Of a DNA stretch of 64,000 nucleotides, positions 24,527 to 51,051 are shown piece after piece. A program made the position numbers and the translations under genes. Under the pieces are notes generated by a model. The model was given only the letters and a program-made list of their open reading frames with translations. It was not told the DNA's origin and did not search any database. How positions within the stretch are numbered: position 1 is the first letter of the stretch; every line of letters begins with the position of its first letter. The stretch covers positions 250,588 to 314,587 of the forward strand of contig JBOEGF010000013.1 in assembly GCA_050633305.1 (NCBI GenBank). The letters run 5' to 3'. Source of the stretch: Nannocystales bacterium (GTDB lineage Bacteria > Myxococcota_A > Polyangia > Nannocystales > Nannocystaceae).

Positions 24527-27500
24527 TCGGCTACCTCGCTCGGCACCCGACCGCCGCCAACCTCCTGATGATCACCCTGCTCCTGCTCGGTGTTCTAGGG
24601 CTCACCTCACTCAAACGAGAGACCTTTCCCGAGTTCACCCCCTCGGTGGTCACCATCACCGTCGCCTACCCCGGCGCGTCCGCCGAGGATGTCGACGAGG
24701 CCATCGTGGCGCGGGTCGAAGACGCGGTCGACGGCATCGAGTACCTCGACCGAATGACCTCCAAGGCCCGCCAAGGTGTGGGCGTGGTGACGCTGGAGAT
24801 GGAAGACGGCGGAGCGCTGGACGCGTTCAAGTCCGACATCGACAGCGCTGTCGATGCGATCAACGACTTCCCCAACGAAGCCGAGGACCCCGTGGTCGCC
24901 GAGGTAACCGGCATGAGCGCGGTCGCCTCGATCGCGGTCCGTGGCCCGATGAGCGTCCCCGACCTCGAGCGCTACTGCGAAGAACTCAAGGACGAACTCC
25001 AACGCTACGAAGAGGTCTCGCAGATCGAGATCGCCGGGTTCTCCACGCCGCAGCTTCAGGTACGGGTCAAGCAATCGGTTGCTTCGTCCTACGGACTGAG
25101 CGTCGGCGATCTCGCTGACCTCATCGCCGCGCAGAGCCTTGACCTCCCGGTCGGCTCGCTCGAGACGCGGGGCGGAGAGATCCTGGTGCGGTTCGCGGAA
25201 CAGCGACGAAGCATCGAGGAGTTCGCCCGACTTCCGGTGGTGGGCAGCGCACTCGGAGGCGAGGTGCCCCTGGGAGACCTCGCAGACATCGAGTACACGT
25301 TCGAGGACGCCGAGGAGCAGACCCTGTTCAACGGCAAGCGTGCCGGCCTTCTGCGGGTGAGCAAGACGTCCAGCCAGGACGCACTCGAGATCTTCTCCGC
25401 GATGGAGGAGTTCGTGGAGCTCAAGTCCGCGACGGCCCCACCGGGCGTCGAGCTTGTCATCACCGACGATGCCGCGACCCCCATCGAGCAGCGACTCGAG
25501 CTGCTGACGAACAACGGCTTTCAGGGGTTGGTGCTCGTCTTCGTCACCCTGTGGCTGTTCTTCAACACCCGCCTGGCCCTGTGGGTGGCCGCCGGCCTGC
25601 CCGTGTCGTTCATGGGCGGCCTGTGGATCATGTCGCTGATCGGCTACACGCTGAACATGATGACCATGATGGCCCTGCTGCTCGCACTGGGGCTGTTGAT
25701 GGACGACGGCATCGTGTTGGCCGACAACATCGCGGCGCACCTGCGGCGCGGCAAGAGCTCCTATCGGGCCGCAATCGACGGCGTCACCGAGGTCTGGCCG
25801 GGCATCGTGTCGTCATTCCTGACGACGGTCTGCGTCTTCACGCCGCTGTCCATGCTCGATGGGCAGATCGGCCGGGTCCTTCTTGTGATTCCCGTCGTAC
25901 TCATCGCCGTCCTCAGCATCAGCCTGATCGAGGCCTTCGGCATCCTGCCCAACCACATCGCGCACTCGTTGCATGGCCGCGACATCGACAAACGCTCTCG
26001 CGCGCGAGCGTGGTTCGACAGTGGCTTCGAGCGCTTCCGGGAACAAATCGTGGGCCGTGCGTCGGACTGGGCGATCCACCACCGCTACATCACCGTCGGA
26101 TCTGCGATCGCGTTCTTCGTCATCTCGATCGGGCTCATGGCGGGCGGCATCCTCAAGTTCGAAGGGTTCCCCGATACCGATGGTGACACCGCCGAGTTCC
26201 GGCTCCGGATGCCCGCCGGAACCCCTCTGGAGGTCACCCAGGCTGAAGTGGCGCGGGTCGTCTCGGGGCTCCAGCAGATCGACGCCGAGTTGACGCCGCA
26301 GCAACCCGAGGCCGCACCGCTCATCGAGAACATCGTCGTTCGGATGAACTACAACCCCGACTCGCCGGACTCGGGGCCACACATCGCGACGGTCAAGGCG
26401 GATCTTCTCAGTGTCGAGGTCCGCAGCACCACCCTCGACCAGCTCAAGACCGCCTGGCGCGAAACCGTGGGGCCGCTGTCCGACGCCACGTCCGCCAGCT
26501 TTGCCAGCGCCGCGATGGGCCCGGGCGGAGCCGCGATCGAGTTGCGGGTTCAGGGCAGCGACCTCGACCGCATGTCGGAAGCCGCGGTGGAGATCGAACG
26601 CTGGCTCGGCGGGTTCGAAGGCGTGTTCGACCTCGGAACCGACCTTCAACCCGGGACCCCGCAGGTGCGGGTGCGCCTGCGCTCGGGTGCCTTGGGCAGC
26701 TCCGCGCAGTCCGTACAAGTCGCGCAGCAGCTCCGCTCCGCGTTCTCCGGCGACCGAGCCCAAGACGTCCGCATCGGCGCGCAGGACTACGAGGTCACGG
26801 TTCAGCTGGCAGATTCGGGTCGCGACACGCTCTCGGACCTCGAGTATTTCGAGCTCCAGCTGGGGGGCGAGCGCGTCCCCCTGGGCACCGTCGCCGACGT
26901 CTCCGCGGACAACACATTTGCCGCGATCGCCCGCGTCAACGGCACGCGCACCGTCACGCTGACCGGTGACATCGATGCAGAGGTCGCGAACTCGGCCGAA
27001 CTCATGCAGCGCTTCAACAACGAGCTGTTGCCTGAACTCGCACAGAAGTACCCCGGGCTCCGGTTCGAGGTCGGAGGCAGCACCGAGGAGTCTGGGAAGA
27101 CCGCCCAATCCATGCTCACCGCGTTCGGCATCGGGCTGTTTGGGGTCTTCTTTCTGTTGAGTTTCCAGTTCCGATCCTACGTCGAACCACTGGTCGTCAT
27201 GCTCGCCATCCCGCTCGCACTGACCGGCGTCATGTGGGGCAACCTGTTCATGGGAGACCCGCTCACCCTGCCGGGCATCCTCGGGTTCATCTCCCTGGCC
27301 GGCGTCGTGGTCAACGACTCCATCTTGCTGATGGTCTTCATCAAGGCCGGGCTTCGCGAGGGGCTCGATCCCACGGCCGCGGCACAAGGAGCCTCTCGGA
27401 GCCGCTTTCGGGCGATCCTGCTGACCTCGGCCACCACGGTCGCAGGACTGGTGCCCCTGATGTTCGAGCGAAGCCAGCAGGCGCAAACACTCATCCCGGT

Positions 27501-27645
27501 GGCCACCAGCATCGTGTTCGGGATGCTCGCTTCGACCGTGCTTCTGCTGCTCGTCTTGCCCGCGATGTACGCAATGCTGGGAGACTTCGGTCTCACCGCC
27601 AAGCCTGGCGCAACCGTAGGCGGCGCCGACGATGAGGAGTCTTGA
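24523..27645 (+). CDS. RND efflux permease (AcrB/AcrD/AcrF family)
   Basis: 1040 aa; AANLLM, YPGASAEDV, GLLMDDGIV, GVVVNDSI, SRFRAILLTS. Confidence 0.96.
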   Translation: MIGYLARHPTAANLLMITLLLLGVLGLTSLKRETFPEFTPSVVTITVAYPGASAEDVDEAIVARVEDAVDGIEYLDRMTSKARQGVGVVTLEMEDGGALDAFKSDIDSAVDAINDFPNEAEDPVVAEVTGMSAVASIAVRGPMSVPDLERYCEELKDELQRYEEVSQIEIAGFSTPQLQVRVKQSVASSYGLSVGDLADLIAAQSLDLPVGSLETRGGEILVRFAEQRRSIEEFARLPVVGSALGGEVPLGDLADIEYTFEDAEEQTLFNGKRAGLLRVSKTSSQDALEIFSAMEEFVELKSATAPPGVELVITDDAATPIEQRLELLTNNGFQGLVLVFVTLWLFFNTRLALWVAAGLPVSFMGGLWIMSLIGYTLNMMTMMALLLALGLLMDDGIVLADNIAAHLRRGKSSYRAAIDGVTEVWPGIVSSFLTTVCVFTPLSMLDGQIGRVLLVIPVVLIAVLSISLIEAFGILPNHIAHSLHGRDIDKRSRARAWFDSGFERFREQIVGRASDWAIHHRYITVGSAIAFFVISIGLMAGGILKFEGFPDTDGDTAEFRLRMPAGTPLEVTQAEVARVVSGLQQIDAELTPQQPEAAPLIENIVVRMNYNPDSPDSGPHIATVKADLLSVEVRSTTLDQLKTAWRETVGPLSDATSASFASAAMGPGGAAIELRVQGSDLDRMSEAAVEIERWLGGFEGVFDLGTDLQPGTPQVRVRLRSGALGSSAQSVQVAQQLRSAFSGDRAQDVRIGAQDYEVTVQLADSGRDTLSDLEYFELQLGGERVPLGTVADVSADNTFAAIARVNGTRTVTLTGDIDAEVANSAELMQRFNNELLPELAQKYPGLRFEVGGSTEESGKTAQSMLTAFGIGLFGVFFLLSFQFRSYVEPLVVMLAIPLALTGVMWGNLFMGDPLTLPGILGFISLAGVVVNDSILLMVFIKAGLREGLDPTAAAQGASRSRFRAILLTSATTVAGLVPLMFERSQQAQTLIPVATSIVFGMLASTVLLLLVLPAMYAMLGDFGLTAKPGATVGGADDEES

Positions 27646-28943
27646 TGAGAAGATGGGCGCGCCCCACGAGGCTCGGCCTAGCGCTGTTGCTCAGCCTCGG
27701 GGCGTGCGGGACCACTGAGGGCCGAGAGCCGCCCCCGAGCGCGGCAAAACCAGATCCCGCGCCCACTCTCGAAGGCACGTGGCGAGCCACCCTGACCTCT
27801 CCAGGCGGCGAGCTCCCATTCGAGCTCCACGTTCATGACCGGGAGGGAACGCTGCAGGCTACGGCGCACAACGGCACCGAGACCGTAGAGTTCACATCCG
27901 TGTCTCTGGGCGGCGACACGGCCGTCCTTCGCATCGACGGATACGATTCCGAAGTCCGTGCCACGCTCAAGGATGATGGGCAGAGCCTCTGGGGCGTGTG
28001 GACAAAGACCACGCCCGATGGTCCGTCTTCGATGCCATTCGCAGCCACCCGCGGGGCGCAACCTCGCTTCTCCAGCGAAACTCCCGCACCGAGCTACGAC
28101 GTCCCAAAATCGGTCGACGGCGAGTGGTCCGTCCGCTTCCGCGAAGAGGACGACAGCACCTTCGTAGGCCATGCGATCCTCACGTCGAGCGACGGAGCAC
28201 TACATGGGACCATCCTGACCGATACGGGTGACTACCGGTACCTCGAGGGACGCTACGCAAACGGTACCGTGGAGCTCTCGTGCTTTGACGGGGGGCATGC
28301 GTTCTTGTTTCGAGCGACGGTTGCCGAGGATGGATCGCTCGAAGGCAACTTCTGGTCCCGCGCGAGCTACCACGCGACGTGGACCGCAACACCGATGAGT
28401 CCGGGTCAGGCCAGCCCGCTCGCGGACCCCTTCACCGCGGTCACCCTGTCGTCTCGAGAGACCGAGGGCCGATTCCGCTTCGCGTTCCCGGACAGCTCAG
28501 GCGCCACCGTGACCGACGAGGACCCTCGTTTTCGCGACAAGGTGGTCCTCATCGACATCTTCGGAACCTGGTGCCCCAACTGCAACGATTACGCGCCGGT
28601 CCTCGCCCGCTGGCATGACACCTATGGCCCCCGTGGACTCGAGATCGTCGGCCTCGCCTTCGAGTTCACCGGGGACGTCAAGCGCGACCGAGCCCAGCTT
28701 GCGACCTACGCCCAAACCCACGGCATCACCTTCCCCCTACTGCTCGCCGGTACCAGCGACAAAGGAGACGCAGCCGAGCTGCTGCCCTCGATCGACGAAG
28801 TGAAATCGTATCCGACCACCATCCTGGTCGGACGGGACGGCCGCGTGCACAAGATCCACAGCGGCTTCGCCGGACCGGCGACAGGGAAACACCACGAGCG
28901 ACTCCTCAACACACTCCAGACGGAGATCGAGTCCCTGCTGTAG
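27642..28943 (+). CDS. TlpA-family thiol-disulfide oxidoreductase lipoprotein with N-terminal beta domains
   Basis: Lipobox LGAC; TDTGDYRYLEG; FGTWCPNC; YPTTILVGRDG; overlaps the RND stop. Confidence 0.9.
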   Translation: MMRRWARPTRLGLALLLSLGACGTTEGREPPPSAAKPDPAPTLEGTWRATLTSPGGELPFELHVHDREGTLQATAHNGTETVEFTSVSLGGDTAVLRIDGYDSEVRATLKDDGQSLWGVWTKTTPDGPSSMPFAATRGAQPRFSSETPAPSYDVPKSVDGEWSVRFREEDDSTFVGHAILTSSDGALHGTILTDTGDYRYLEGRYANGTVELSCFDGGHAFLFRATVAEDGSLEGNFWSRASYHATWTATPMSPGQASPLADPFTAVTLSSRETEGRFRFAFPDSSGATVTDEDPRFRDKVVLIDIFGTWCPNCNDYAPVLARWHDTYGPRGLEIVGLAFEFTGDVKRDRAQLATYAQTHGITFPLLLAGTSDKGDAAELLPSIDEVKSYPTTILVGRDGRVHKIHSGFAGPATGKHHERLLNTLQTEIESLL

Positions 28944-29209
28944 CCGGACACCGCGGCGCAAGGACAACGCCAGGGACCGAGACTCACCCCCCACTGCCAC
29001 GTTGGTAACCACGAGCAATAAGCGCGCAAAGAATCATCCGCGGAGCCCCAACACGGTTTCAGCCCCCAACTGCAACAGAACCAAGTTCTCCCCCGGTCTG
29101 GCGGCTGTCGCCCCGATTCTGCTGCGCTGAGTTTCGATGGCAGCCCGAACCTCGGGCAGCGCCTCAGTTGCCCCCGCGCCGCTCGGCCGGCTACGTTTCA
29201 CGACACCCG

Positions 29210-29629
29210 ATGTCATCAACGGTGAAACTCGCCGGCGTCGATGCCGAACGACTCGAGCTCCACTTGTGCACGCTCGAGCTCGCGGCCCCAACGCCCAACG
29301 TTCTTGCTTCTCGGGTCGTTGGAATGGGTTCGGTGGAGATGGTTGAGAACGTCATCGCGTTTGGGGACTCACTGATCGCGAAGTCTGGATCGATCCAGAT
29401 CTTTCACGACTTCTCAGAGGTGTCGGGCTACCGAGCCGAAGCGCGGCGGGTCCTTGTCGACTGGGGCGTGCGAAACCCCGACGCGATCGAGTGCACCCAC
29501 GTGCTGTTCCGCTCCAAGATCGTGGCGATGGGCGTGTCGATGGCAACACGGCTGTTGGGCGAACAACTGACGGGCTACTCCAAGTACCCGGAGTTCGACG
29601 CGGCGCGTGCCGCCGCCGCCCGTCGCTGA
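29210..29629 (+). CDS. Hypothetical STAS/SEC14-like small protein
   Basis: FHDFSEVSGYRAEARRVL...HVLFRSKIVAMGVSMA pattern. Start uncertain. Confidence 0.6.
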   Translation: MSSTVKLAGVDAERLELHLCTLELAAPTPNVLASRVVGMGSVEMVENVIAFGDSLIAKSGSIQIFHDFSEVSGYRAEARRVLVDWGVRNPDAIECTHVLFRSKIVAMGVSMATRLLGEQLTGYSKYPEFDAARAAAARR

Positions 29630-29707
29630 ACCGACCGTACGGAGGCCATCCGACCGCGCTCGGCCCCCCAAAATGACGGCCCGCGCCTCGTGTTAGCTTG
29701 CGCCGAC

Positions 29708-30763
29708 GTGCGCGAAGCTGCCGCAATCCTTCTGCTCGTGAGCGCCGCTTGCGGGTCTTCTCCGTCGCAGACGGCCGACTCGACCAGCACCGGGGACGAC
29801 CCGTCCACGGGCACGGCGCTGGACGTCACATCCTCGACGATGTCCCTGCCTCATTCGTCGACCTCGAACTCGACGAGTGAGGATGGCTCGAGTGGATCGT
29901 CCGGCATCGGGCAGCCCGATCTACCGGACCCTGATCCGGATCCTCCGCAGGCGTCCGAGTACTGCGAGTCCATCGTCGACAGCTTCTGCGACTTCTACGC
30001 TCGATGCGGGCGGATGGACGTGGCGTCGGCAGAGCTTTGCCACGAGCCCTTCTTGGAGTCGTGCAACACCGTCTTCGAACCGCAGTATGTGGGGCTCGAG
30101 GCTGCGGGCTTGCTGACGTTGAGCGCCGAAGGACTGCTGGCATGCGAAGAGCACCTGGCGGACGTCGCCTGCGAGGAACAGATCTTCGAGCTCACGGGGC
30201 CCTGCAGCAACCTGTGGTCTGGCACCCAAACCGCAGGCGAGGGCTGCGGGCTCGATGTCGAGTACTACGTCTGCGATCCCTCGGCAGCGTGCACGATCGG
30301 CTTGGACTTCTGCGGCACGTGCGAAACGTTGCTCGAGCCGGGCGACGATTGCACCCCCGACGGAACGACCTGTGGCCCCGATGCGTTCTGCGATGTAGAC
30401 GCGTGCCGGGCTCGCGTCCCCAACGGTGGTCGCTGCACCCCCGACGACCGCTGCTTGGCAGGGTCAGCCTGTACTGACGGAACTTGCCAAGGACCGACAT
30501 TCGTCGGCCTCGGTGACACCTGCGACATCACGCGGCGCTGCCCGTACCTCACCGCGTGTGTCGCTGGCGTGTGCACGTCGACGCCCCGGCTGGGAGACGC
30601 CTGCTCGCCGGACATCCCCTGTGAGGTCGGGTTCTGCGACGGCGATTCGTGCCAGGCTCCGCGCGACAACGGCGAAATGTGTGGTGGAAACCCAGAGTGC
30701 AGCTCGGGCATGTGTGTCGAAAACGTGTGCGAACCACGACCCTCGGGCTGCATTGCAAACTGA
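29708..30763 (+). CDS. Cys-rich (Dickkopf-like repeat) lipoprotein
   Basis: Lipobox SAAC, Ser/Thr linker, repeated GxxC-xxxx-C-xxG-C modules. Confidence 0.82.
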   Translation: MREAAAILLLVSAACGSSPSQTADSTSTGDDPSTGTALDVTSSTMSLPHSSTSNSTSEDGSSGSSGIGQPDLPDPDPDPPQASEYCESIVDSFCDFYARCGRMDVASAELCHEPFLESCNTVFEPQYVGLEAAGLLTLSAEGLLACEEHLADVACEEQIFELTGPCSNLWSGTQTAGEGCGLDVEYYVCDPSAACTIGLDFCGTCETLLEPGDDCTPDGTTCGPDAFCDVDACRARVPNGGRCTPDDRCLAGSACTDGTCQGPTFVGLGDTCDITRRCPYLTACVAGVCTSTPRLGDACSPDIPCEVGFCDGDSCQAPRDNGEMCGGNPECSSGMCVENVCEPRPSGCIAN

Positions 30764-30891
30764 GCCCACGCCCGGCACGTCTGTATGCTGCACGCGATGC
30801 GCAGGCGTAGGGTCGTCGGACCTCGATGAGAGCCCGCTGAAGGAGCTCCGCTAGAACCGTGGTCGAAGAAGCAAGAACCGCTGGCCAACCC

Positions 30892-31485
30892 ATGCGAGTC
30901 GCGATCGTCACCCTGGAAGCGTTCAACGAGCTGGACAGCTTCGTCGCCTCCGCGCTCCTGAATCGAGCGCCGGAGGTCCGGGCGTCGATCTGCTGCCCGA
31001 GCGACACGGTGACCTCGATGAACGGCGTGAGCATCACTGCCCAAGCACCGCTCGAGTCGGCGGCAGAGGCAGACGCAGTCCTGATCGGGAGCGGACGGAG
31101 GACCCTAGACTACCTGGAGGACCGCTCGTTCCTGGCGCGGTTGCGGCTCGACCCCACCCGCCAGCTGATCGGTGCGCAGTGCTCAGGCGTGCTGCTGCTT
31201 CACCGCCTCGGCCTCCTCGGAGACACCGCAGCTTCCGACTCCGTGACCACTCCCCGGCTTCAGGAGCGCGGAGTTCACGTCATCCAAGCCCCCCTCCACG
31301 TCGAGGGAAACGTCGCCACCGCGGGAGGATGCCTCGCCTCGCAATACCTCGCCAGCTGGATGCTCGCCCGTATGTGCGGGTGGCCCGAAGCCGCACGCGT
31401 GGTCCACGAGGTCGCTCCGGTCGGCCAAAAGGACGACTACGTCCGGCGCACGGCGGAGGTCGTTACCCCGGCCCTGAGGGCCTGA
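30892..31485 (+). CDS. DJ-1/PfpI family protein
   Basis: FNELD, nucleophile GAQCSG, GNVATAGG. Confidence 0.88.
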   Translation: MRVAIVTLEAFNELDSFVASALLNRAPEVRASICCPSDTVTSMNGVSITAQAPLESAAEADAVLIGSGRRTLDYLEDRSFLARLRLDPTRQLIGAQCSGVLLLHRLGLLGDTAASDSVTTPRLQERGVHVIQAPLHVEGNVATAGGCLASQYLASWMLARMCGWPEAARVVHEVAPVGQKDDYVRRTAEVVTPALRA

Positions 31486-31629
31486 GGGCGCACGAAGGGG
31501 GCCACAGCAGCAACTCTCCCACGTTCCAAGCCGCGACCACGTGGCTCTTCGTTGCCGCGGCGGTGGGACTGCTCATCGCGCTTGTCTTGTCGGCCCTCAG
31601 TTAGACACACAACACGCGATGCTCGAGCA

Positions 31630-33714
31630 TCAATCGGAACGCTTCCCGCGGGGCGTACGAGAGCCGCCCGCCTCTGCCCCGCGGTACTGCTGATACCAAG
31701 GCATGTTGCGAATTTCCGCCAAGTAGGCCTGGTACTGGGTTTCGTAGGCTTCTTTGCCGCGCGTGTCGTTGAACAACAGCCGGGTGCCTCGGTAAGCCCG
31801 TGCGATGTCGACGACCGCGATCACCAACAGCTGAGGGATCCCCGAACGCAACCCGAGCCACGCTCCGCTCGTCATCCACGACTCGTCGCCAAGAGCCAAG
31901 ACCACCGCGTTGAGTACGACACAGGCCGCTGTCGAGAACGCGATGTGCTGGTAAACGCTCGTCATCTCACCGAAGGAGAGCGTGTCATAGAGCAGCGCGT
32001 TGACCAGCTTGCGAACGACCGGGATCACCAGGACCAGCGCCAATCCCACGAGCGATAGCCAGCCCAGGGCGAGGCCGAGCAACAAGAAGTTGACGGCGAA
32101 CAAGGGGACCCATGCCATCTTGGCGATCAGGCCGGGCGCGAACATGTTGGTCCAGCGCCGGCAGTACTCCAGATACTTGTCGTTCTCGTCGTTGAGTTCG
32201 GGATACCGCGCGGGAATTCCCGGTCCCGTGAGGTATGCCGAGAACTCCCCGGCCAAGAGCGAAGACCACATCGTGCGGGGCTTGCCCAACGCGTGACTGA
32301 TCTCCTCGTTGGTCATTCCCGTGAACTGGGTGTGCTCGAGCCCCTCGTACTCCTGCCCGGACTCCAAGTAGTTGTACTTCCACGACGCCATCCGGGCGTC
32401 GAACTCGCGAACGAACTTCGTGTGAAACGAGCCGTCATCGATGAGGCGATGGATGAACTCGCACTGGATCTCCGACGTGCCCGCAAACGCCCCGGTGGTA
32501 GGCCGCTCGACGCCTACGAAGTAGACGTTGGGTCGCTTCGCGTTCCACAGCCCGTAGAGGCAGTCGGTGTAGTTGTATGTCCAGGCCTCTCCGTTGGAGC
32601 CCAGGATCTCGACCGGCGCCGGACGTGCAATGCCAGCCTTGATCCGTCGGTCGACCTTGACCGGCTCGCCGTCGATCTCGCACACATCGTCTCGAACCCA
32701 GTCCACCCGCTTGGGGTGCACCACCCTCAAGTCTCCCCGCTTCATGAAGAAGTACGGGTCGTTGAGGAGCATGCGGTGCGAGAGCATCTGCTCCCGATAC
32801 TCGCCGTCGAAGTGTGCGAAGAACGAGTCGATGGACCAGTATTTGACGGGTAGCCCGAAGCCCGCGTTGACCCCGGTCCGAAGCAAGTAGCTACGCCACG
32901 CCGAAGGGAGGTCCTTTCGGTAGAAGTCCTCCGGAGTCATGAGTTCATCCAGACCGGACTTCTTGCGGAACAGCCGAGAGAGCCAAGTGTCACCGTAGGG
33001 CGAGACGGCGGTACACAGAGCGCTGCGGTACGAACGCTCGTGGTTGTACTTGGCCAGGTACTGGTACGGCTCGAACATGTCCAAAGGCGCCCACGCCTTG
33101 GATTGCCCCTCCATGTAGAACACCTTGTCGAGGTTCTGGAAGTGCTCGGTGCAGAAGATGACCTTGTTGCCACCGAGCATCAGTCGCGACATGTACATGT
33201 TGCTGGTGTCGCCGTAGCCGTCGATGACCACCGTCTTGTTCTGGAGGTGGAGCGTCTCCTGCAGCGTTTCACAGATGCCGGGGCCATCCACGGTCTGCGC
33301 CGCCGTGACCACCAGATGACGGCAGCGCACAGAACCCGAGGTTTCCCCCTCCAAACCCACGTCGAACGACCCGTCCGCCCGCTCTTGGTACTTGACCGCC
33401 CGCGACCGCACCGTCCGAGCGCGGATCTCGGAGCAGACATCGGCCTGCAGCCGCTTGTAGTAGTCGGTCGCCGTGAAGAAGTGAAAATCGAGGTCGAAGT
33501 CCCACCAGGAAAAGCCCGCAACCGCGTTGGAAGACAGGAGGTCAAAGTCGTCTTCGTGTTCCGCCAAACGACTCCACACCCCGAAGTCACGCTCCGAGAT
33601 CACGACGAACGACTTCTTCGAGCGCACGAGCAGCCGCAGCAGCGCCAGCGAGGACACGCCCAAGCCCACGACGCAGACGTCGACGGTTTTTCCCGTCCAG
33701 TCGTGGTCGTTCAC
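31630..33714 (-). CDS. AetF-like single-component flavin-dependent halogenase/monooxygenase with membrane insertion
   Basis: Collinear with the AetF sequence as I recall it: VCVVGLGVSS, VWSRL, NKTVVIDGYGDTSN, LDMFE, VKYWSID, LLND, NVYFVGVERPTTG, SEIQCEFIHRLI, FNDTRGKEAY. GTGA overlap with the upstream gene. Confidence 0.85.
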   Translation of the reverse strand: MNDHDWTGKTVDVCVVGLGVSSLALLRLLVRSKKSFVVISERDFGVWSRLAEHEDDFDLLSSNAVAGFSWWDFDLDFHFFTATDYYKRLQADVCSEIRARTVRSRAVKYQERADGSFDVGLEGETSGSVRCRHLVVTAAQTVDGPGICETLQETLHLQNKTVVIDGYGDTSNMYMSRLMLGGNKVIFCTEHFQNLDKVFYMEGQSKAWAPLDMFEPYQYLAKYNHERSYRSALCTAVSPYGDTWLSRLFRKKSGLDELMTPEDFYRKDLPSAWRSYLLRTGVNAGFGLPVKYWSIDSFFAHFDGEYREQMLSHRMLLNDPYFFMKRGDLRVVHPKRVDWVRDDVCEIDGEPVKVDRRIKAGIARPAPVEILGSNGEAWTYNYTDCLYGLWNAKRPNVYFVGVERPTTGAFAGTSEIQCEFIHRLIDDGSFHTKFVREFDARMASWKYNYLESGQEYEGLEHTQFTGMTNEEISHALGKPRTMWSSLLAGEFSAYLTGPGIPARYPELNDENDKYLEYCRRWTNMFAPGLIAKMAWVPLFAVNFLLLGLALGWLSLVGLALVLVIPVVRKLVNALLYDTLSFGEMTSVYQHIAFSTAACVVLNAVVLALGDESWMTSGAWLGLRSGIPQLLVIAVVDIARAYRGTRLLFNDTRGKEAYETQYQAYLAEIRNMPWYQQYRGAEAGGSRTPRGKRSD

Positions 33715-35273
33715 TGTGCCGCCCCCTCCTGGGGCTGGGTAGGCTTCGCCCGCATCCACTCCGCCAACCGACGAACGTAGTCGGTATTGCCACGCCAGTC
33801 GTTGTCGAGATCGTCAGGCAGGAAGAAGCGGTCGACGAGTTCCCCGGACTTGTAGTGTCGGATGATCGGGTGGATGTAGAAGTCCTCAGCCACCCCCACG
33901 CCGCGAGGCATCGCGAACGGGTCCATGTACTCGTCGGACTTCCCGTACTCCAACGTCAGCATGTACAGCTCGGATTCCTCGGACAGCAGCCTTTCGGTGA
34001 CGTAGTCCACTGGAACATCACGCAGCAGCTGGAACGCCCCGGGGATGTCTTCGGCTGCTGGTACCACGACATCGGCGAGGAAGCCCGGCTGCAACATCAA
34101 GGCGGCCGATGTACTCATCCGCTCGATGAGCGCGGAGGCCAGCCCCTCTTCGAGGGCGGACGGCAGGCGCTCGCGCTCGACCCAGGGCCCCTTTCCGTCG
34201 CGGCGGCTCACAATGGAGACCAGGGACTCGATGTTGTGTCGGAACCCGTGGATGAACGCGGACATCGTCTTCCGATAGTCGCGGGACTGCATCAGCGTCC
34301 CGATGAAGAACATGTTGGGGACGTTCACCGACTCCCAGTCGCAGGTCATCAGCGGCAGCCGCCCGCACTCTCGGCGCAGTGGTGCGCACGACACATCGAA
34401 GATGCCCAGGTCGGAACAGAAGCCCGTGCACAGCAACACCCGGTCGCAGGGGTACGAGAGCAGCTGCTTCCGAGACTCGAACCAGACGTCGACGACCAAC
34501 TCCCCATCGACCTTGCGGACCGCCCGAAGTTCACCGTCGAGGATGTTGTTCTGCGCCTTGAGCTGGTAGGTGTCCAAGAAGTTGTTGTTGACCGCCCGCA
34601 GGTGCCCCACGAAGTGGCTTGCCCAGGCGAGTTTCACGGTGCTGCGCCCGCACACCCAGATCTTGCGCGTGGTCTCGATCAGGGCATCCGCGGTTTCGAA
34701 CGCGGAGTTCCCCTTGCCCGCGATGAACACCCGTTGGTCGACGAAGTCGTTGGGGTCGACGGAGAACTCGTCGTAGTTCTCGCAGAGTTCCGCCCCCTCG
34801 ATGTCGGGTCGATGGGCGTTGGGAATGCCCGTTGCGACGAACAGCCGCTCGCACGTGAATACGCGGCCATCCTCCAGAACGACCGAGAACTCGCCTTGCG
34901 CCTTGGCGACCTTGGTGACGGCGCAACCGTAGGAGATCACCAGCTTGTAATGTGCTGCGAACGCCTCGAGGTAGGCCACCAAGGACGAAGCCGTGGGGAA
35001 GTAGTCCTTGGAGAACTCCCGGAACTGCAGTGCTTCGTCGTCGCAGACCAGAGCGTTCCAGTCGTAGCGGCGCCGTGACTCGAGGTCCGGGTACCCGGTG
35101 TGGACTTTGTTGATCGACAGCAGCCGGTCGTGCCGTGGGTAGCTGTGGAAGAAGGTCCCCGCACTCTCACCGCGCTCCAGCACGAGGTATTCCTCGCCAG
35201 ACTTGGCGAGCAGGTGGGCGAGCTGCAGCCCCGCAGGACCGGCGCCGATGATCAGATTGCGAACGTGTGTCAT
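33711..35273 (-). CDS. FOXRED2-like FAD/NAD(P)H-dependent oxidoreductase (copy 2)
   Basis: GAGPAG, LLSINK, RYDWNAL, YFP, ATG, GKGNSAFETA, HLRAVNNNFLDTYQLK, CTGF, SAFIHGFR. Confidence 0.9.
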   Translation of the reverse strand: MTHVRNLIIGAGPAGLQLAHLLAKSGEEYLVLERGESAGTFFHSYPRHDRLLSINKVHTGYPDLESRRRYDWNALVCDDEALQFREFSKDYFPTASSLVAYLEAFAAHYKLVISYGCAVTKVAKAQGEFSVVLEDGRVFTCERLFVATGIPNAHRPDIEGAELCENYDEFSVDPNDFVDQRVFIAGKGNSAFETADALIETTRKIWVCGRSTVKLAWASHFVGHLRAVNNNFLDTYQLKAQNNILDGELRAVRKVDGELVVDVWFESRKQLLSYPCDRVLLCTGFCSDLGIFDVSCAPLRRECGRLPLMTCDWESVNVPNMFFIGTLMQSRDYRKTMSAFIHGFRHNIESLVSIVSRRDGKGPWVERERLPSALEEGLASALIERMSTSAALMLQPGFLADVVVPAAEDIPGAFQLLRDVPVDYVTERLLSEESELYMLTLEYGKSDEYMDPFAMPRGVGVAEDFYIHPIIRHYKSGELVDRFFLPDDLDNDWRGNTDYVRRLAEWMRAKPTQPQEGAAQ

Positions 35274-36928
35274 TTGCCCATCCCCTGGCTGGCATCGACC
35301 AGCCGCATGTCTTTGTCACGGACGATCAACCGCCGTACGGGGTCCGCCTTCGCCTCCAACGTGTCTCCCCGCATCGAACGCTCGAAATACTCCGCGCACG
35401 GTCCGAGATACTCGCGACCACTCCAGTCGGCGAGAAAGTCCTCGAGCACGTGAAACTCCGACCGCCGCGCGCCGTCCGTGCCAGAGCGCATCTCGACGAC
35501 GGGGTGGATGTTGGTACTCGACGCACCGTCGTAGACGTTGGTGCTCCGGTCGTAGTCGTGGGGGTTCGGCGGGTTGTCGCCGAGTCGGAACATCAGAATG
35601 TAGAAGTCCCGCCCCTCGCTGATCTTCGCGCCATGCTCCACCAGGTAGTCGTAGGGATGGGAGAAGATGTACCGCGCGGTGCCCCCGGGCTCTTTGGGAA
35701 GCACGATCATGTCCGCGAGGAAGCCGACCTGCTGCCAAAGCGAGGACACGCGGTTCATCCGGGCGAGGAATGCTTCTGCGAGCGCGCCTCCTGTGGGCTC
35801 GACCTCGATCGAGGGTAGCGGGTCTTGGTGGTAGCGCTCCGCCAGGAGTCCGGCGAGTGACTCGGTGTTGTAGCGGAACCCATGGATGAATGCGGACTGA
35901 GCCCGCTTGTGGTCGAGGAACTGGGTCACCGTCCCCGCGAAGAAGAGACCCGGGACGTTGCTCGACTCGAAGCCAGTGCTCATCGTGGGCAGGCGTCCGC
36001 ACTCGGAGAGCTCGGGCAAGCAGGTCTCGTCGAAGATCGACCGGTCGAAGCGAAAGCCGGTACAGCGCAACACCGCGTCGTACTCGATCTGCTCGACTTC
36101 GTTGGCTGCGTGAATCGAGGAGAAGCTGACACGGATCTTCCCCGTATCGGTGCGCTCCATCCCCTGGACGTTGCCGTCGATGATCCCGTTCTGAGACTTG
36201 AGGTGGTACGTGTCGAGAAAGTTGTTGTTGACCGCCCGCAGGTGCCCCACGAACCGTGAGTCCCACGCGAGGGTGACCGGGTGCGGGCTGAGCATGTGGA
36301 TGACGGCGGCCGTGGGAATGAGGTTGTCGGCGGTTTCGAAGGCCGAGTTTCCCTTGCCCAGGATGAGCACGTTCTTGTTGTGGAACTCCGCCGGGTCGAC
36401 GGACATCGTCTCGTAGCCCTCGGCGAGTTCGATGCCAGGAACGTCCGGGATCACCGGGGTTCCGACACCCGTCGCAACAACGAGACACCGAGCCCGGTAT
36501 CGCTGCCCGCCCTCGCATTCGGCTTCGAAAGACCCCTGGCCATCTTCGCGACGCACCGAGGTCACTCGGCGCTCGAGGTGGACCTGAAGCTCGTTCGCCC
36601 GGACGAATCGCGCAAGGTAGTCGACCAAGACGTCGGCCGAGGGAAAGTACTCTTGGGTCAGCTCCGTCATGCGCCCCGACGCGTCCTCGCTGATCAGCGA
36701 GTTCCAGTCGTGGCGGAGGTTGAATTCCGGGTCGTCCCGGCCCGTTGCCGACTTGTTGATCGACAACAGCGTCCGGTGTCGTGGATACCGTGAGAAGAAC
36801 GCTCCCACGTGGTCGGCCCCGTCCAGGACTACGTAGCGACGCCCTGCGCGTTGAAGGAAGTACGCGAGCTGCAGCCCGGCAGGTCCCGCTCCAAGGATGA
36901 GGTAGTCGGTTTCGAACGTCGTCGCCAT
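35270..36928 (-). CDS. FOXRED2-like FAD/NAD(P)H-dependent oxidoreductase (copy 1)
   Basis: GAGPAG, RHRTLLSINK, EFNLRHDWNSL, GKGNSAFETA, HLRAVNNNFLDTYHLK, CTGF, SAFIHGFRY; ATGA overlap with copy 2. Confidence 0.9.
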   Translation of the reverse strand: MATTFETDYLILGAGPAGLQLAYFLQRAGRRYVVLDGADHVGAFFSRYPRHRTLLSINKSATGRDDPEFNLRHDWNSLISEDASGRMTELTQEYFPSADVLVDYLARFVRANELQVHLERRVTSVRREDGQGSFEAECEGGQRYRARCLVVATGVGTPVIPDVPGIELAEGYETMSVDPAEFHNKNVLILGKGNSAFETADNLIPTAAVIHMLSPHPVTLAWDSRFVGHLRAVNNNFLDTYHLKSQNGIIDGNVQGMERTDTGKIRVSFSSIHAANEVEQIEYDAVLRCTGFRFDRSIFDETCLPELSECGRLPTMSTGFESSNVPGLFFAGTVTQFLDHKRAQSAFIHGFRYNTESLAGLLAERYHQDPLPSIEVEPTGGALAEAFLARMNRVSSLWQQVGFLADMIVLPKEPGGTARYIFSHPYDYLVEHGAKISEGRDFYILMFRLGDNPPNPHDYDRSTNVYDGASSTNIHPVVEMRSGTDGARRSEFHVLEDFLADWSGREYLGPCAEYFERSMRGDTLEAKADPVRRLIVRDKDMRLVDASQGMGK

Positions 36929-36953
36929 GGTGTCTGTGCCTCGTTGGTCGGAC

Positions 36954-37658
36954 CTACTCCGACAGGAAATGTGTCCCGCTCTCCAGCGCCGCGTGGGTCC
37001 GCGAGAGCATCTCGTCGCAGAAGCTCTCGGTTCGGTCGAAGATGCCGTGGACGAGTGCTTCTGCTCGAGGGCGCATCGACTCGGGCAGGACGCAGGAGCG
37101 AATGTCCTCAACCTCGCTGCCGATCGCATGACCGGTCTCTCGCTCGAGGTGGTGCTGTGAGAAGTAGACCAGTCGCTCTCGCTGCGGATGCGAGCTGGCA
37201 GCACGGGCGGTCGCAGAAAGCCACACGTTGCCTTGGGCTTCGAGCGCTTCGATGATCACCAAGCGAAGCTCGGCGCTCGCATCTCGGGCGGCCGCGATGA
37301 CGTAGTGCCCCAGCTCGCGCGCATGCTTGCCCTCGTCGCTCCACAGGAACCGAAGAACATCCGTAAACCGGCATTCTCGGTCGAATCCTAGGACTTTGAG
37401 GTCGTGGAGGAACCAGGCAAAGTGCGTCTGATCCTCCGCCGCATGCTCGTTGATCATTTCCTGTTGCGGACTGTCTGGTTCGTCCTCGTGCAGGAAGTCC
37501 CGGTTGAATTCCCCGAAGGTCAGGACAAAGTGGCTGCCGAACGGCGCATAGGCGAGCCGTTGCTCTGCAGGTACGGTCTCGTCACGAAGAAACCGGATGA
37601 AGGGATGGCGTTCGTAGGCGCTACGCCTGCGCTCGATGATTTCGAAGATCGCCTGCAA
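36954..37658 (-). CDS. AetD-like heme-oxygenase-like diiron oxidase (nitrile-synthase homolog)
   Basis: TTG start after GGGAG. FLRDETV, INEHAAEDQTHFAWFLHDL, GFD, RFLWSD, VIIEALE, HLERETGHAIG match recalled AetD motifs and give a full His/Glu/Asp diiron ligand set. Confidence 0.88.
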   Translation of the reverse strand: MQAIFEIIERRRSAYERHPFIRFLRDETVPAEQRLAYAPFGSHFVLTFGEFNRDFLHEDEPDSPQQEMINEHAAEDQTHFAWFLHDLKVLGFDRECRFTDVLRFLWSDEGKHARELGHYVIAAARDASAELRLVIIEALEAQGNVWLSATARAASSHPQRERLVYFSQHHLERETGHAIGSEVEDIRSCVLPESMRPRAEALVHGIFDRTESFCDEMLSRTHAALESGTHFLSE

Positions 37659-37894
37659 TGAAGTCTCCCGGCCGCGGCCGCACCGATAGATACGGTCGTG
37701 TTCGGATGTGACAGAGAAACTCAAAAAACTCAGACCGGTCGCGGTCGCCCCCAAGCCACAGCGCGCTTGGTGCTCCTGGAGCTCCAACCTCCGAGCAGAA
37801 CTCCGGGCGGGTTCGCCAACCCAGCGGTGGTCTGCGTCCAGCGGCTCAGAGGCCGCCCAGACCGAGGGGTATAGTCGCGCGGTCGTATCGCCTC

Positions 37895-39304
37895 ATGCAT
37901 CGCCGTCCGCTCAGAACTTGCTCCGTGTCCTCATCCCTTCTCGGAGCCGCCCTTCTCGTTGGTTGCGCCGACGACCCGCCGAACTGCCGGCATCGCGTGT
38001 GCGACATCAACGAGGCCTCATGTGCCGAGTTCGTGGCCGAGGTCATCTCGTGCCAGCGCGACGCACCCCTCGCGATCCCCACCGTTCGATTCTCGACGGC
38101 CGCCGAGATCCTCGCCGAGCGCGACCCCGCAACCCAGGAGGAACTCGACTTCGCCCGCGACTACTGGGCGGGAGAAGCTTTGGTGGGTCTGATGCCCGCG
38201 AACTACGACCCTGCCGACGCAGCCTCCGACTCGCTCTCCGGCGTGCTCGCTCAGTACCGCGCAGGGACGGATGAGATCGTCATCATCTCGGACTCCGACA
38301 TCGACGACCCCGAACTGGGGTACCAGGTCCTGGTCCACGAGATGCTCCACGCGCAACAAGATGTGGAGTACGACCTCAGCGCGCTCTTCGACGAATATGC
38401 GACGACGTTCCCACGAAGCCTCGGACTCCGAGCCGCGGTTGAAGGGGAGGCTTCGTTCTACACGACCGTCGCACAGCTCGAACTCGACGACCTGACGGCG
38501 GACCAGGTCGACTGGGAGAGTTATTACTGGGACTGGCAGAACAGCGCGTGGCTGGCCGCCCGCCAAAGTGAGGTGCCCTCCCTCGATGTGATGGGCCTCT
38601 TTCCGTATGCCTTTGGTTCGGAACAGGTCTATCGAGCCTGGACCGCAGGCGGGCTCGAGGAAGTCCGCGACTACGTCCAGCACCCACCCGATTCCGTTCG
38701 ACAAGTCATGGCAGGCTACGCGCAGCGACCTCCGCAGGTGTTCAACTTCGACACCGAACTCAATCCTAGAGCCGTCCCGATTCTGCCTGGCCACACCTAT
38801 CTCAGCGGCGGAGCCCAGGACTCCTGGCTGCTGAACACCATGTTGCAGCGAACTGCGGGAAGTCTGGCCGACTGGTCCCTCGAGGTTGGCAAGATCGAAG
38901 CCGACCACCTCAGTATCTGGCGCGACGACACGACCGGAGACCGTGTCGCGGTATGGCGTCTCGTCGGCGATCGCCTCGCGCTCCGAGACGTGCTGCTCGG
39001 CGACGGCTCGCAATGGGCCGAGACTTCAGCGAACGCGACCACGCATCACATGCGACCGGTCGGAGAGGACTGGATCTTGGTCGCCACCGAAGCTCCCACC
39101 GCGGTCGCCGTCGCCGACTCGATCACCGGCTGGCAGAGCCAAGACGAGGCATTTGAACTCGCGGGCCTCGTCCGAACGTCGGCCCCCGGAGACCTGGTCT
39201 TGCCTGGACCCTGTCACCACCATGCGAGACACGCACCGGCAACAAGCCACTCAGCCGGCGACCAGAACCGCGGTCGACCTGCCCCTGGCGCGGGGTCCGG
39301 TTGA
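37895..39304 (+). CDS. Lipoprotein zinc metallopeptidase-like (HExxH)
   Basis: Lipobox LVGC; VHEMLHAQQD, downstream EGEA, FPYAFG. Confidence 0.8.
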   Translation: MHRRPLRTCSVSSSLLGAALLVGCADDPPNCRHRVCDINEASCAEFVAEVISCQRDAPLAIPTVRFSTAAEILAERDPATQEELDFARDYWAGEALVGLMPANYDPADAASDSLSGVLAQYRAGTDEIVIISDSDIDDPELGYQVLVHEMLHAQQDVEYDLSALFDEYATTFPRSLGLRAAVEGEASFYTTVAQLELDDLTADQVDWESYYWDWQNSAWLAARQSEVPSLDVMGLFPYAFGSEQVYRAWTAGGLEEVRDYVQHPPDSVRQVMAGYAQRPPQVFNFDTELNPRAVPILPGHTYLSGGAQDSWLLNTMLQRTAGSLADWSLEVGKIEADHLSIWRDDTTGDRVAVWRLVGDRLALRDVLLGDGSQWAETSANATTHHMRPVGEDWILVATEAPTAVAVADSITGWQSQDEAFELAGLVRTSAPGDLVLPGPCHHHARHAPATSHSAGDQNRGRPAPGAGSG

Positions 39305-39335
39305 CACGCAGTCGGCGTACATCGATCGTTGTGCG

Positions 39336-40460
39336 GTGAGTCTAGGACCTGGATGGTTCGGCGCTGTTGCGGGGCTTGGTGTGCTCGTGCTGAGCGGTGC
39401 GGCGTGTTTCGTCACCAACCCCGCCGACCCCGAAGAAGAGTCGGACGGAGGGACCGAGCAGCCCAGCAGTTCCAGCAGCGGCAGTTCCGGAGGCGGCCCT
39501 TCGGGGGCGACGTCGTCGACAACCAGCGGCCTTCCCGACGGCGAAGTCACCAGCGGCACAACCAACGCGTGCACTCAGGGCGCGATGTGTACCGCCGTCG
39601 CGCCCGACGAATGGGAGGGGCCGGCGGTGGTGGTGCTCCGCACCCCCGATAGCGATCCATCTTGCCCCTCGGGCACCGACCTCGGCTTCCAGATGACCAC
39701 CGACGTCTCCGCAGATCCGGCGGCCTGCGAATGCTCGTGCGGTCCACCAGAGTCGGTCACCTGCGATGGCAGAGTCCGGATTCACGACGACGACGAGTGC
39801 CCGACCGTCGGCGCGATGGTTGGTGGGGTCGGTGCTACATGCGCTCCTTTTCCTCCCGCATTCTCTGCGACGCACCACTGGAGCCTCGAGACATGGGTGG
39901 ACGCAGGCGGCTGCGAGCCGACGACAGATACGACCTTGCCCGAACCCACGGCTGGAGCGCGGGTCGACGTGTGCGTGGCCGCCCCCGGAGCCGGCGCGTG
40001 CGCTTCGGGCGTCTGCCTGCCTGAGCCTGATGCGGAGGCACGACACTGTATTTGGGCACCTGGCGATCTGCCATGTCCCGACGGTCCCGACGGTCCCGAC
40101 GGTCCCGACGGTCCCGACGGTCCCGACGGTCCCGACGGTCCCGAGTTTTCGGAGAAGTTGCTCGGCAACAACGGCTTCGACGACACGCGGGGGTGCCTCG
40201 ACTGCATGTGCGCCCCCCCTCACGAGTCTTGCCGCGCGACGGCCGAGCTTTTCCCGTCGGAAGACTGCGCAATCGGTGACCAAAGCGGGGTGATCACCTG
40301 GGAAGGCGCGGGCTCCTGCGTGCCCGCGATGGAGGAGGTCGGCTCCGTCCAGCTCGACTTCGACCCAGACCCTCAGGCGGCGTGTGCACCGTCCGAGCCA
40401 CAGCCGGTCGGAGGCCTCGTTCCCCTCGAGCAGACGACCTTCTGTTGTTCACCAACCTAA
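39336..40460 (+). CDS. Cys-rich lipoprotein with (PDG)7 insertion
   Basis: Lipobox GAAC, Ser/Gly linker, CECSC, DDTRGC, ends TTFCC. Start estimated at GTG 39336. Confidence 0.8.
   Translation: MSLGPGWFGAVAGLGVLVLSGAACFVTNPADPEEESDGGTEQPSSSSSGSSGGGPSGATSSTTSGLPDGEVTSGTTNACTQGAMCTAVAPDEWEGPAVVVLRTPDSDPSCPSGTDLGFQMTTDVSADPAACECSCGPPESVTCDGRVRIHDDDECPTVGAMVGGVGATCAPFPPAFSATHHWSLETWVDAGGCEPTTDTTLPEPTAGARVDVCVAAPGAGACASGVCLPEPDAEARHCIWAPGDLPCPDGPDGPDGPDGPDGPDGPDGPEFSEKLLGNNGFDDTRGCLDCMCAPPHESCRATAELFPSEDCAIGDQSGVITWEGAGSCVPAMEEVGSVQLDFDPDPQAACAPSEPQPVGGLVPLEQTTFCCSPT
40075..40144 (+). repeat. Perfect 9-bp tandem repeat (CCCGACGGT)x7 plus partial units
   Basis: Read directly; seven identical units from 40077 to 40139. 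Confidence 0.97.
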
Positions 40461-46302: not shown

Positions 46303-46358
46303 CGGAAACGCGCGTTGCTCGGCCACGGCGACGTCCGTACCATGCGCAACAGCCGAAC

Positions 46359-48044: not shown

Positions 48045-48280
48045 CAAGTTGCGGAGAGACACGCTCCGTGGGCGGTCACCAGCTCCTCTCGTGCCGGTGG
48101 GCGCGGCTCGATACCGCCCGCAAGACCCGCAACGGCAGCGCTAGGGGAGTCGGCGAGGAGTGAGGTCGAAAACGCCCTCGCGCTTCACGTTCTCCAAACC
48201 GGGCCCTCGCTCAGGCCCGCGCGTGAAAGGTCCGGGTCAAGACAGCACGTTTCGACTGAGGCTGTTAGGGTTTCGTCTGC

Positions 48281-50989: not shown

Positions 50990-51051
50990 TTCTTTTTTTC
51001 TCGCGTCAGATCTTTCGGGCTCAGTGTAGAAGGCGTCGCATGGTGCGGCGT

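What the first reader, a model, noticed from the sequence alone, without database searches (positions are those of the whole stretch)
31630..37658. Four-gene AetD-like / 2x FOXRED2-like / AetF-like operon: candidate new halogenated-nitrile or N-oxidation pathway in a myxobacterium
Seen: four co-oriented genes joined by a 25-nt gap, an ATGA overlap (35270-35273) and a GTGA overlap (33711-33714). All four are redox enzymes. Established: in cyanobacterial aetokthonotoxin biosynthesis AetF brominates tryptophan and the diiron enzyme AetD converts the product to an indole-3-carbonitrile, with AetA, the P450 AetB and the tryptophanase AetE completing the pathway. Inference: an AetD/AetF pair is reused here with two flavoproteins of the poorly understood FOXRED2 family, and without P450, tryptophanase, NRPS or PKS in the window, so the product should differ. 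I do not know of a described cluster with this composition. Homology rests on my recollection of the AetD and AetF sequences.
Basis: partly seen in the sequence, partly recalled or inferred. Interest (0 to 1): 0.92.

Follow-up and report, generated by a model that had tools for sequence, protein, structure and literature searches.

The report
Myxobacterial diiron–halogenase–flavoprotein biosynthetic cassette
Four tightly linked enzyme genes, found together as one block in several uncultured myxobacteria, likely convert an aromatic amino acid (probably tryptophan) into an unknown small halogenated compound, and would give a first testable function for three unstudied enzyme subfamilies.

Summary
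In detail: four minus-strand genes with a 25-nt gap and two 4-nt overlaps. Gene 1 is a full-length AetD-family diiron oxidase with all six iron ligands (E 2.5e-41). Gene 4 has the AetF fold (Z 34) with the catalytic Lys and Glu. Genes 2 and 3 are FOXRED2-like flavoproteins. The block recurs in 5 other loci with unrelated flanks (4 in the same order), and in 4 of 72 genomes of the order. But it is not a reused AetD/AetF pair. Gene 4 lacks AetF's tryptophan-anchoring C-terminal part and carries a 125-residue hydrophobic insert instead. Gene 1 is about equally close to the skatole synthase SktA, matches neither at the positions that separate them, and has a clade-specific Trp146 in the ring pocket. 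So a nitrile product is not implied. The closest architecture is skt (diiron oxidase + halogenase + flavin monooxygenase). Most likely: side-chain cleavage of unhalogenated tryptophan, flavin oxygenation, then late halogenation at the membrane; every chemical step is inferred. I found no described cluster of this composition (8 paper searches returned), and no earlier scan note on look-alike DNA. Verdict: real, new variant of a known kind.

The parts
36954..37658 (-). g1: AetD/SktA-family heme-oxygenase-like diiron oxidase (234 aa, TTG start). Ligands D76, H79, E140, H170, E174, H177; pocket F44, F48, Y165 kept; clade-specific W146/L147
   Evidence: ligand list from PMC11611611
36929..36953 (-). 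25-nt gap between g1 and g2
35270..36928 (-). g2: FOXRED2-like FAD/NAD(P)H flavoprotein, copy a (552 aa); travels with g1 in a wider set of contigs
35270..35273 (-). ATGA stop/start overlap g2/g3
33711..35273 (-). g3: FOXRED2-like flavoprotein, copy b (520 aa), 42% identical to g2; a long-branch clade seen only in four-gene cassettes among the 77 rows of the tree
33711..33714 (-). GTGA stop/start overlap g3/g4
31630..33714 (-). g4: AetF-fold single-component flavin halogenase candidate (694 aa); K291 = AetF K258, E215 = AetF E200
32842..32844 (-). codon of K291, the equivalent of AetF's essential lysine; invariant in 47 of 47 aligned family members
   Evidence: K258A inactive in PMC9772203
31777..32154 (-). 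g4 residues 521-646: hydrophobic helical insert (GRAVY 1.07, best 19-residue window 2.54), predicted membrane anchor, absent from AetF

Best explanation
The four genes form a conserved, self-contained cassette that likely makes a small halogenated, oxygenated aromatic compound: the diiron enzyme g1 would cut or rearrange the side chain of a free, unhalogenated aromatic amino acid (most likely tryptophan), the two FOXRED2-like flavoproteins would oxygenate the resulting ring compound, and the predicted membrane-anchored enzyme g4 would halogenate it late, after the amino-acid end is gone. Shown: gene order, coupling, conservation as a block, folds and catalytic residues. Inferred: substrate, every reaction, the order of steps and the halide (bromide is assumed by analogy with AetF and SktB). 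Within this reading I put a skatole-type C-C cleavage, an AetD-type nitrile and a third outcome at roughly 40/25/35.
For: Cassette: 6 loci carry all four genes, 5 in the same order, with unrelated flanks; a seventh by consecutive accessions MBV1860899/898/896. g1: six iron ligands plus F44, F48 (the open Fe1 site for an amino-acid substrate) and Y165 (carboxylate contact) are kept; both characterised relatives act on Trp; 4 of the 13 outside-clade homologs that I aligned lie next to a Trp prenyltransferase. At AetD's indole-clamping I146 those four have small residues (A, T, G, T) while 26 of 27 rows of g1's clade have Trp and 0 of 13 outside it do, which suggests less room for ring substituents. 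g4: AetF is the top structural match (Z 34, rmsd 2.9, 539 residues; next family Z 26); K258 and E200 equivalents are kept, and that lysine is absent from ordinary FMOs (PMC10306068); ring-pocket L183, L196, T373, F524 are kept but the anchors for the Trp amino and carboxyl groups are not. g2/g3: best solved relatives are flavin monooxygenases (E 6e-21); in 2 of 13 other myxobacterial loci a FOXRED2-like gene directly follows a tryptophanase, one of them inside g2's clade (SH-aLRT 100). The skt cluster has the same three functions.
Against: No activity, product or expression data. W146 could equally mean a smaller, non-indole substrate. FOXRED2-like genes occur in many contexts (NRPS or A-PCP in 3 of 13 loci, a two-component-type halogenase, another diiron oxidase, unrelated genes), and only 2 of 13 point to indole. 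Reductases YpdA/Bdr and ferredoxin-NADP reductase score almost as well as monooxygenases (E 4e-19, 3e-17). g4 is only 22% identical to AetF, AetF F372 is Thr, and 7 other AetF-family genes in this order have no diiron oxidase or FOXRED2-like neighbour in the stretches fetched, so halogenase activity rests on two residues and the fold. The mapping of AetF Q500/D516 is approximate. No transporter, regulator or Trp-supply gene is conserved with the block.
Confidence: 0.42

Rival explanations
1. One reading: g4 halogenates free tryptophan first, as AetF does, g1 converts halo-Trp to a halo-indole-3-carbonitrile, and g2/g3 tailor it.
For: AetD and AetF are the only strong PDB hits of g1 and g4; AetD also accepts mono- and non-brominated Trp (PMC10654658); g1 L139 and T210 are closer to AetD M139/S214 than to SktA T139/F214.
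Against: g4 lacks AetF 554-668 including K587 and has Leu for S523; W146 replaces the indole clamp I146; SktA shows that ~39% identity to AetD does not predict a nitrile, and the SktA paper reports that AetD clusters with no other sequence; g1 shares H43, G49-E50, N144 and F166 with SktA and not with AetD (read by eye).
Confidence: 0.13
2. Same logic, other substrate: g1 acts on a smaller aromatic or aliphatic amino acid (Tyr, Phe, Leu), giving a cresol/toluene-type, nitrile or alkene product that g2/g3 oxygenate and g4 halogenates.
For: W146 fills the site where AetD clamps the indole; Q/M142 matches neither AetD nor SktA; HDOs with the same ligands do very different chemistry (PMC13108848); AetF-type enzymes accept phenols, alkenes and alkynes.
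Against: G41 (A/S in most relatives) is smaller than AetD I41 and may compensate; all functional clues in this HDO branch point to Trp.
Confidence: 0.2
3. One or both FOXRED2-like proteins are not oxygenases but NAD(P)H-dependent electron donors that re-reduce the diiron centre of g1; the pathway then has only two chemical steps.
For: g2 accompanies g1 more widely than g4 does (11 vs 5 of 26 g1 relatives share a contig length; adjacent accessions MCA9704594/595); another FOXRED2-like gene lies beside a tandem diiron oxidase (L070); YpdA and FNR are near the top of the PDB list.
Against: FOXRED2-like genes also follow tryptophanase and NRPS genes, which need no electrons; aet and skt have no such reductase; two diverged copies with different C-terminal residues fit two substrates better than one donor role.
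Confidence: 0.13
4. The block is catabolic or detoxifying (degrading or inactivating an indole or haloaromatic compound), and g4 is a membrane-bound monooxygenase, not a halogenase.
For: g4's Atlas neighbours are FMOs; no export or resistance gene is conserved; AetF-family genes often stand alone in this order.
Against: The halogenase lysine is invariant in 47 of 47 rows and is not general in FMOs; all characterised AetD-branch enzymes are biosynthetic; no ring-cleavage or downstream catabolic gene accompanies the block.
Confidence: 0.12

Closest known systems
skt cluster of Nostoc punctiforme NIES-2108 (SktA skatole synthase, SktB Trp 5-brominase, SktC flavin monooxygenase; PMC11869266)
   Same: AetD-family diiron oxidase + flavin halogenase + flavin monooxygenase, no P450, no tryptophanase; g1 is about 35% identical to SktA (hand count).
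   Different: SktB is a canonical Trp-halogenase sequence acting on free Trp, g4 is AetF-fold with a hydrophobic insert; SktC is a single FMO, here two FOXRED2-like proteins; SktA has T139/T142/M146/F214, g1 has L139/Q142/W146/T210.
aet cluster of Aetokthonos hydrillicola (AetD nitrile synthase, AetF Trp 5,7-brominase; PMC11611611, PMC10654658, PMC10306068)
   Same: g1 has the AetD fold family and all six ligands (about 35% identity, hand count); g4 has the AetF fold, K258 and E200.
   Different: No AetA, AetB or AetE counterpart in the window; g4 lacks AetF 554-668, S523 and F372 and has a 125-aa hydrophobic insert; g1 has W146/L147 for I146/F147 and G41 for I41.
FOXRED2/ERFAD family (human ER flavoprotein; role in ER-associated degradation is recalled, not read)
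   Same: g3 scores 0.98 with a chordate FOXRED2 cluster in the ESM Atlas, 229 of 256 features shared; same Pfam set.
   Different: Bacterial, cytoplasmic, 520-552 aa, in biosynthetic contexts; I found no paper with a reaction for a bacterial member. No direct alignment to human FOXRED2 was possible.
JamD, alkyne halogenase of jamaicamide biosynthesis
   Same: Single-component flavin halogenase (listed so in PMC11725856); its kinship with AetF is recalled.
   Different: Not compared: neither paper was held and no JamD sequence was in hand. The cassette has no fatty-acid, ACP or desaturase gene.

Membership tests
HDO diiron oxidases, AetD/SktA branch (g1) | 3-His/3-carboxylate ligands D76, H79, E140, H172, E176, H179 | tested here: met
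   D76, H79, E140, H170, E174, H177; invariant in 27 of 27 clade rows
HDO diiron oxidases, AetD/SktA branch (g1) | Hydrophobic residue (F48) in place of the fourth carboxylate; F44 and Y167 substrate contacts | tested here: met
   F44, F48, Y165
AetD nitrile synthase (ortholog) | Pocket residues I41, M139, A142, I146, F147, S214 | tested here: not met
   G41, L139, Q142, W146, L147, T210
SktA skatole synthase (ortholog) | T139, T142, F214 and M146 | tested here: not met
   L139, Q142, T210, W146
AetD or SktA | Nitrile, or skatole plus cyanide, formed from (halo)Trp | not testable with these tools
   needs an enzyme assay
AetF-type single-component flavin halogenases (g4) | Class B FMO-like two-dinucleotide fold matching AetF | tested here: met
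   model pLDDT 88.6; Foldseek E 1.6e-28; Z 34.0, rmsd 2.9, 539 aligned
AetF-type single-component flavin halogenases (g4) | Catalytic K258 and E200 | tested here: met
   K291 invariant in 47 of 47, E215 in at least 90%
AetF tryptophan halogenase (ortholog) | Anchors for the Trp amino and carboxyl groups (Q500, D516, S523, K587) and the soluble C-terminal domain | tested here: not met
   AetF 554-668 unaligned; S523 is L647; 125-aa hydrophobic insert against 31 aa in AetF-architecture rows; Q500/D516 mapping approximate
AetF-type halogenases | Halide-dependent halogenation | not testable with these tools
   needs an enzyme assay
FOXRED2-like flavoproteins (g2, g3) | Full-length similarity to eukaryotic FOXRED2 | tested here: inconclusive
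   Atlas feature score 0.98 to a chordate FOXRED2 cluster for g3; no alignment to a named FOXRED2; none among the 120 best of 4330 hits listed for g2
Class B flavin monooxygenases (g2, g3) | FAD and NAD(P)H Rossmann motifs; closest solved relatives are monooxygenases | tested here: inconclusive
   GAGPAG and GKGNSA motifs conserved; FMOs E 6e-21 against YpdA E 4e-19 and FNR E 3e-17; all NCBIfam scores far below cut-off; no structural model obtained
aet-type cluster | AetA, P450 AetB and tryptophanase AetE present | tested here: not met
   no such Pfam hit in 67 window ORFs; no tryptophanase hit in the genome
skt-type cluster | AetD-family oxidase + halogenase + flavin monooxygenase, without P450 or tryptophanase | tested here: inconclusive
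   same functional classes by prediction, but halogenase and oxygenases come from different families

The most novel reading that the evidence does not exclude
The cassette is a new pathway type in which three unstudied subfamilies all do new chemistry: the W146 diiron clade performs a third side-chain reaction distinct from AetD and SktA, the FOXRED2-like proteins are small-molecule (indole) oxygenases, which would give the first reaction for the family of human FOXRED2, and g4 represents the membrane-anchored majority of the AetF family (43 of 47 rows) that halogenates hydrophobic metabolites at the membrane.
Probability: 0.2. Interest if true: 0.87.

Novelty: new variant of a known kind. 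Interest (0 to 1): 0.62.

Why it matters
It is a 6-kb, four-gene unit with sharp boundaries that can be expressed and assayed directly. Only two enzymes of the AetD branch are characterised, and what steers them to nitrile or skatole is an open question (PMC13108848); g1 differs from both at the named positions. AetF is a valued biocatalyst, yet most of its family appears to carry a membrane anchor and usually stands alone; here one sits in an operon that supplies its likely substrate. FOXRED2-like flavoproteins number in the thousands, and I found no reaction reported for a bacterial member; two are coupled here to a definable pathway.

Tried and rejected
Pfam and NCBIfam give no family for g1 or g4; they were placed by PDB searches. 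Longer upstream starts of g1, g2 and g4 listed by the ORF finder were rejected: homologs begin at the chosen codons. Extending the cluster into flanking genes was rejected: no flank gene is shared with the five other loci, and the RND pump at 23081-27645 is not conserved with it. A search for RNA runs listed no holder; this says nothing on expression. No Rfam match in 29000-40000; no sigma-70-type promoter, and terminator-like hits near chance level (8 against 3.9 +/- 2.1). No structural model of g2/g3 or g1 was obtained, so the monooxygenase-or-reductase question and the effect of W146 on pocket size stay open. The idea that g2/g3 are halogenases through their invariant K59 or K244 was considered and left untested. 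No AetF-family gene was found on plasmids with P0170. Cassette composition does not stand out from the window (GC 0.62-0.64 against about 0.65), so there is no sign of recent transfer. Paper searches with no description of this cluster: (sought DiatB and found nothing on it; one search timed out). The library lacks most subscription papers, including the two JamD/alkyne papers; the supplement of the bioRxiv sponge paper was not seen. Earlier scan notes: none by sequence or place; seven notes by words concern other clusters and did not change the reading. Both trees are quick searches with SH-aLRT only, and AetF itself is not in the g4 tree (P0180, P0294, P0306, P0307, one 90% cluster, stand in by architecture).
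Full report
Observation. g1 starts at TTG 37658 (234 aa), g2 at ATG 36928 (552 aa), g3 at ATG 35273 (520 aa), g4 at GTG 33714 (694 aa). The window lies on contig C13 of an 11.0-Mb, 92%-complete genome in which each gene is single-copy. Close relatives are labelled Nannocystaceae or Polyangia, so 'myxobacterium' is fair. None of 67 window ORFs scanned (25, 42) has a P450, tryptophanase, NRPS or PKS Pfam hit, and tblastn with a tryptophanase and a Trp prenyltransferase finds nothing in the genome at E 1e-8.

The block is a conserved unit. A search with g4 gave 3 genome loci and 2 metagenome loci. All 5 hold all four genes at 60-81% identity; 4 keep the order and L001 has g2 moved to the end. DNA similarity to 19 kb around the cassette starts at g1 and ends at g4, and the flanks differ. 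Consecutive accessions show a seventh copy (MBV1860899, 898, 896). In the 72 genomes of the order, g1-family matches occur in 13, FOXRED2-like in 10 and AetF-profile matches in 11, and all lie side by side in 4, the own genome included; one same-genus genome has 16,000 withheld bases, and many are incomplete. A 400-genome class sample added no cassette-clade g1. Of 26 g1 relatives, 11 share a longest-contig length with a g2 relative and 5 with a g4 relative; 9 of the 15 without a g2 match are on contigs under 2.4 kb. One distant g1/g2 pair has adjacent accessions. This suggests, indirectly, a g1+g2 core to which g3+g4 were added; g3 forms a long-branch clade seen only in four-gene cassettes among 77 tree rows.

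g1. It matches AetD over residues 1-214 at E 2.5e-41, 76 identities in about 218 columns by my hand count. The six ligands named in PMC11611611 (passages) are present as D76, H79, E140, H170, E174 and H177, with F44, F48 and Y165, so it is a substrate-triggered, amino-acid-binding HDO by sequence. That does not make it a nitrile synthase. PMC11869266 (body text read; supplement part 1 of 3) shows that SktA, 39% identical to AetD, makes skatole, cyanide and bicarbonate, and that AetD clusters with no other sequence. By eye g1 is about as close to SktA as to AetD and shares H43, G49-E50, N144 and F166 with SktA. A review (PMC13108848, passages) names M139/A142/S214 in AetD against T139/T142/F214 in SktA; g1 has L139/Q142/T210. 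AetD clamps the indole between I146 and F44 (PMC10654658, passages). g1 has W146, as do 26 of 27 rows of its clade and 0 of 13 outside; the four homologs beside a Trp prenyltransferase have A, T, G and T there (contexts). I infer less room for ring substituents, hence an unhalogenated and possibly smaller substrate. This was not modelled.

g4. It matches AetF at E 1.1e-34 over residues 11-477, and a profile of 47 relatives matches AetF at E 4e-199. The model (pLDDT 88.6) finds AetF first by Foldseek and VIA (Z 34.0, rmsd 2.9, 539 residues, 22% identity; FMOs Z 26 or less). K291 is AetF K258, which is essential (PMC9772203, passages) and not general in FMOs (PMC10306068, passages); it is invariant in 47 of 47 rows, and E215 (AetF E200) nearly so. 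Ring-pocket L183, L196, T373 and F524 are kept; F372 is Thr. The difference lies at the C-terminus. AetF holds the amino and carboxyl groups of Trp with Q500, D516, S523 and K587. g4's model spans AetF 1-553 only, S523 is Leu, and residues 521-646 are a hydrophobic helical insert. Such an insert of 100 residues or more is present in 43 of 47 rows; only four rows of one cluster have the AetF layout, and these lie on the other side of the deepest split from g4. So g4 is likely a halogenase, likely membrane-bound, and likely not for free Trp. Seven other AetF-family genes in the order have no HDO or FOXRED2-like neighbour in the stretches fetched; two lie near a two-component-type halogenase.

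g2 and g3. They are 42% identical and belong to a family of at least 4330 proteins. The Atlas places g3 at 0.98 to a chordate FOXRED2 cluster. A 92-row profile finds small flavin monooxygenases first (E 6e-21), with YpdA/Bdr and ferredoxin-NADP reductases close behind. Both copies keep the family's invariant residues. Contexts of 13 other myxobacterial copies are mixed: directly behind a tryptophanase-family gene in 2 (L065, L066; the Asp and His that mark tryptophanase against tyrosine phenol-lyase are present, the criterion is recalled), beside NRPS or A-PCP genes in 3, a halogenase-like gene in 1, a tandem HDO in 1, and nothing telling in the rest. Two actinobacterial copies lie beside an adenylating enzyme and a P450, and an FMN dehydrogenase. 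The L065 protein falls in g2's clade. These contexts favour tailoring of small molecules, with indole as one substrate, but do not prove oxygenase activity.

Mechanism. The most economical reading parallels skt: g1 cleaves or rearranges the side chain of free Trp, g2 and g3 oxygenate the indole product (SktC is proposed to do this in skt, unproven), and g4 halogenates the uncharged product at the membrane. The result would be a small halo-oxindole or related compound. I give this 0.42; another amino acid 0.2; the AetF-then-AetD nitrile route 0.13; a reductase role for g2/g3 0.13; catabolism 0.12. About three in four, then, that the cassette makes a halogenated small molecule. No reaction is shown.

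Novelty. Eight paper searches found aet and skt but no cluster with this gene set; the library lacks most subscription papers, and the JamD papers were not held. PMC11725856, PMC13519999 and bioRxiv 10.64898/2026.08.03.742642 were seen as passages and add nothing on it. The scan's own notes hold no look-alike DNA. The cassette fails ortholog tests for AetD, SktA and AetF while passing the family tests, so I file it as a new variant of the diiron oxidase + halogenase + flavin oxygenase kind. Interest 0.62: compact, conserved and directly testable, with three uncharacterised subfamilies, but a known logic and an unknown product.

Noticed in passing
P0011 (EukProt EP00755 Sulcionema specki): A transcript-derived protein of a eukaryote is about 46% identical to g4 and groups with it and a Chloroflexota protein (support 100); gene transfer or contamination, not resolved.
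   Followed up: partly
L065:335-3540 and L066:283-3351: Two-gene pairs of tryptophanase followed by a FOXRED2-like flavoprotein in two other genomes of the order; a minimal system to test the family on indole.
   Followed up: partly
L016:4757-9392 (Calothrix sp. NIES-4101 plasmid), L088, L089, L090: AetD-family oxidases beside Trp prenyltransferases, in L016 with an FMO and an SDR: a likely prenylated counterpart of skt, in cyanobacteria and myxobacteria.
   Followed up: partly
L017:6001-7503; Distant AetD-family genes (27% identity, tandem domains in L017) on 266 Escherichia, 36 Piscirickettsia and 22 Salmonella plasmid records, annotated as hypothetical; tandem two-domain forms also in L043, L044, L070.
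   Followed up: no
L095-L107; Seven further AetF-family genes in six genomes of the order, mostly standing alone; two lie near a CmlS-like halogenase gene.
   Followed up: partly
L042:5399-7393, L021: AetD-like domain fused to a polyketide-cyclase (START-like) domain, behind an acyl-CoA-dehydrogenase-like gene, in at least one genome; long open frames suggest the same in two more of that genus.
   Followed up: no
L071:1812-9782 and L072:4960-8682: FOXRED2-like genes near MACPF-hemopexin genes in two genomes, once with a one-module NRPS.
   Followed up: no
window 23081-28943: RND efflux pair followed by a redoxin-domain lipoprotein; not conserved with the cassette.
   Followed up: partly
window 39782-40283: Short tandem repeat encoding a run of Asp-Gly-Pro in the ORF 38886-40460.
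   Followed up: no
window 42146-53181: Run of large co-oriented ORFs with no Pfam family except one CHAT/TPR protein (48281-50989).
   Followed up: no
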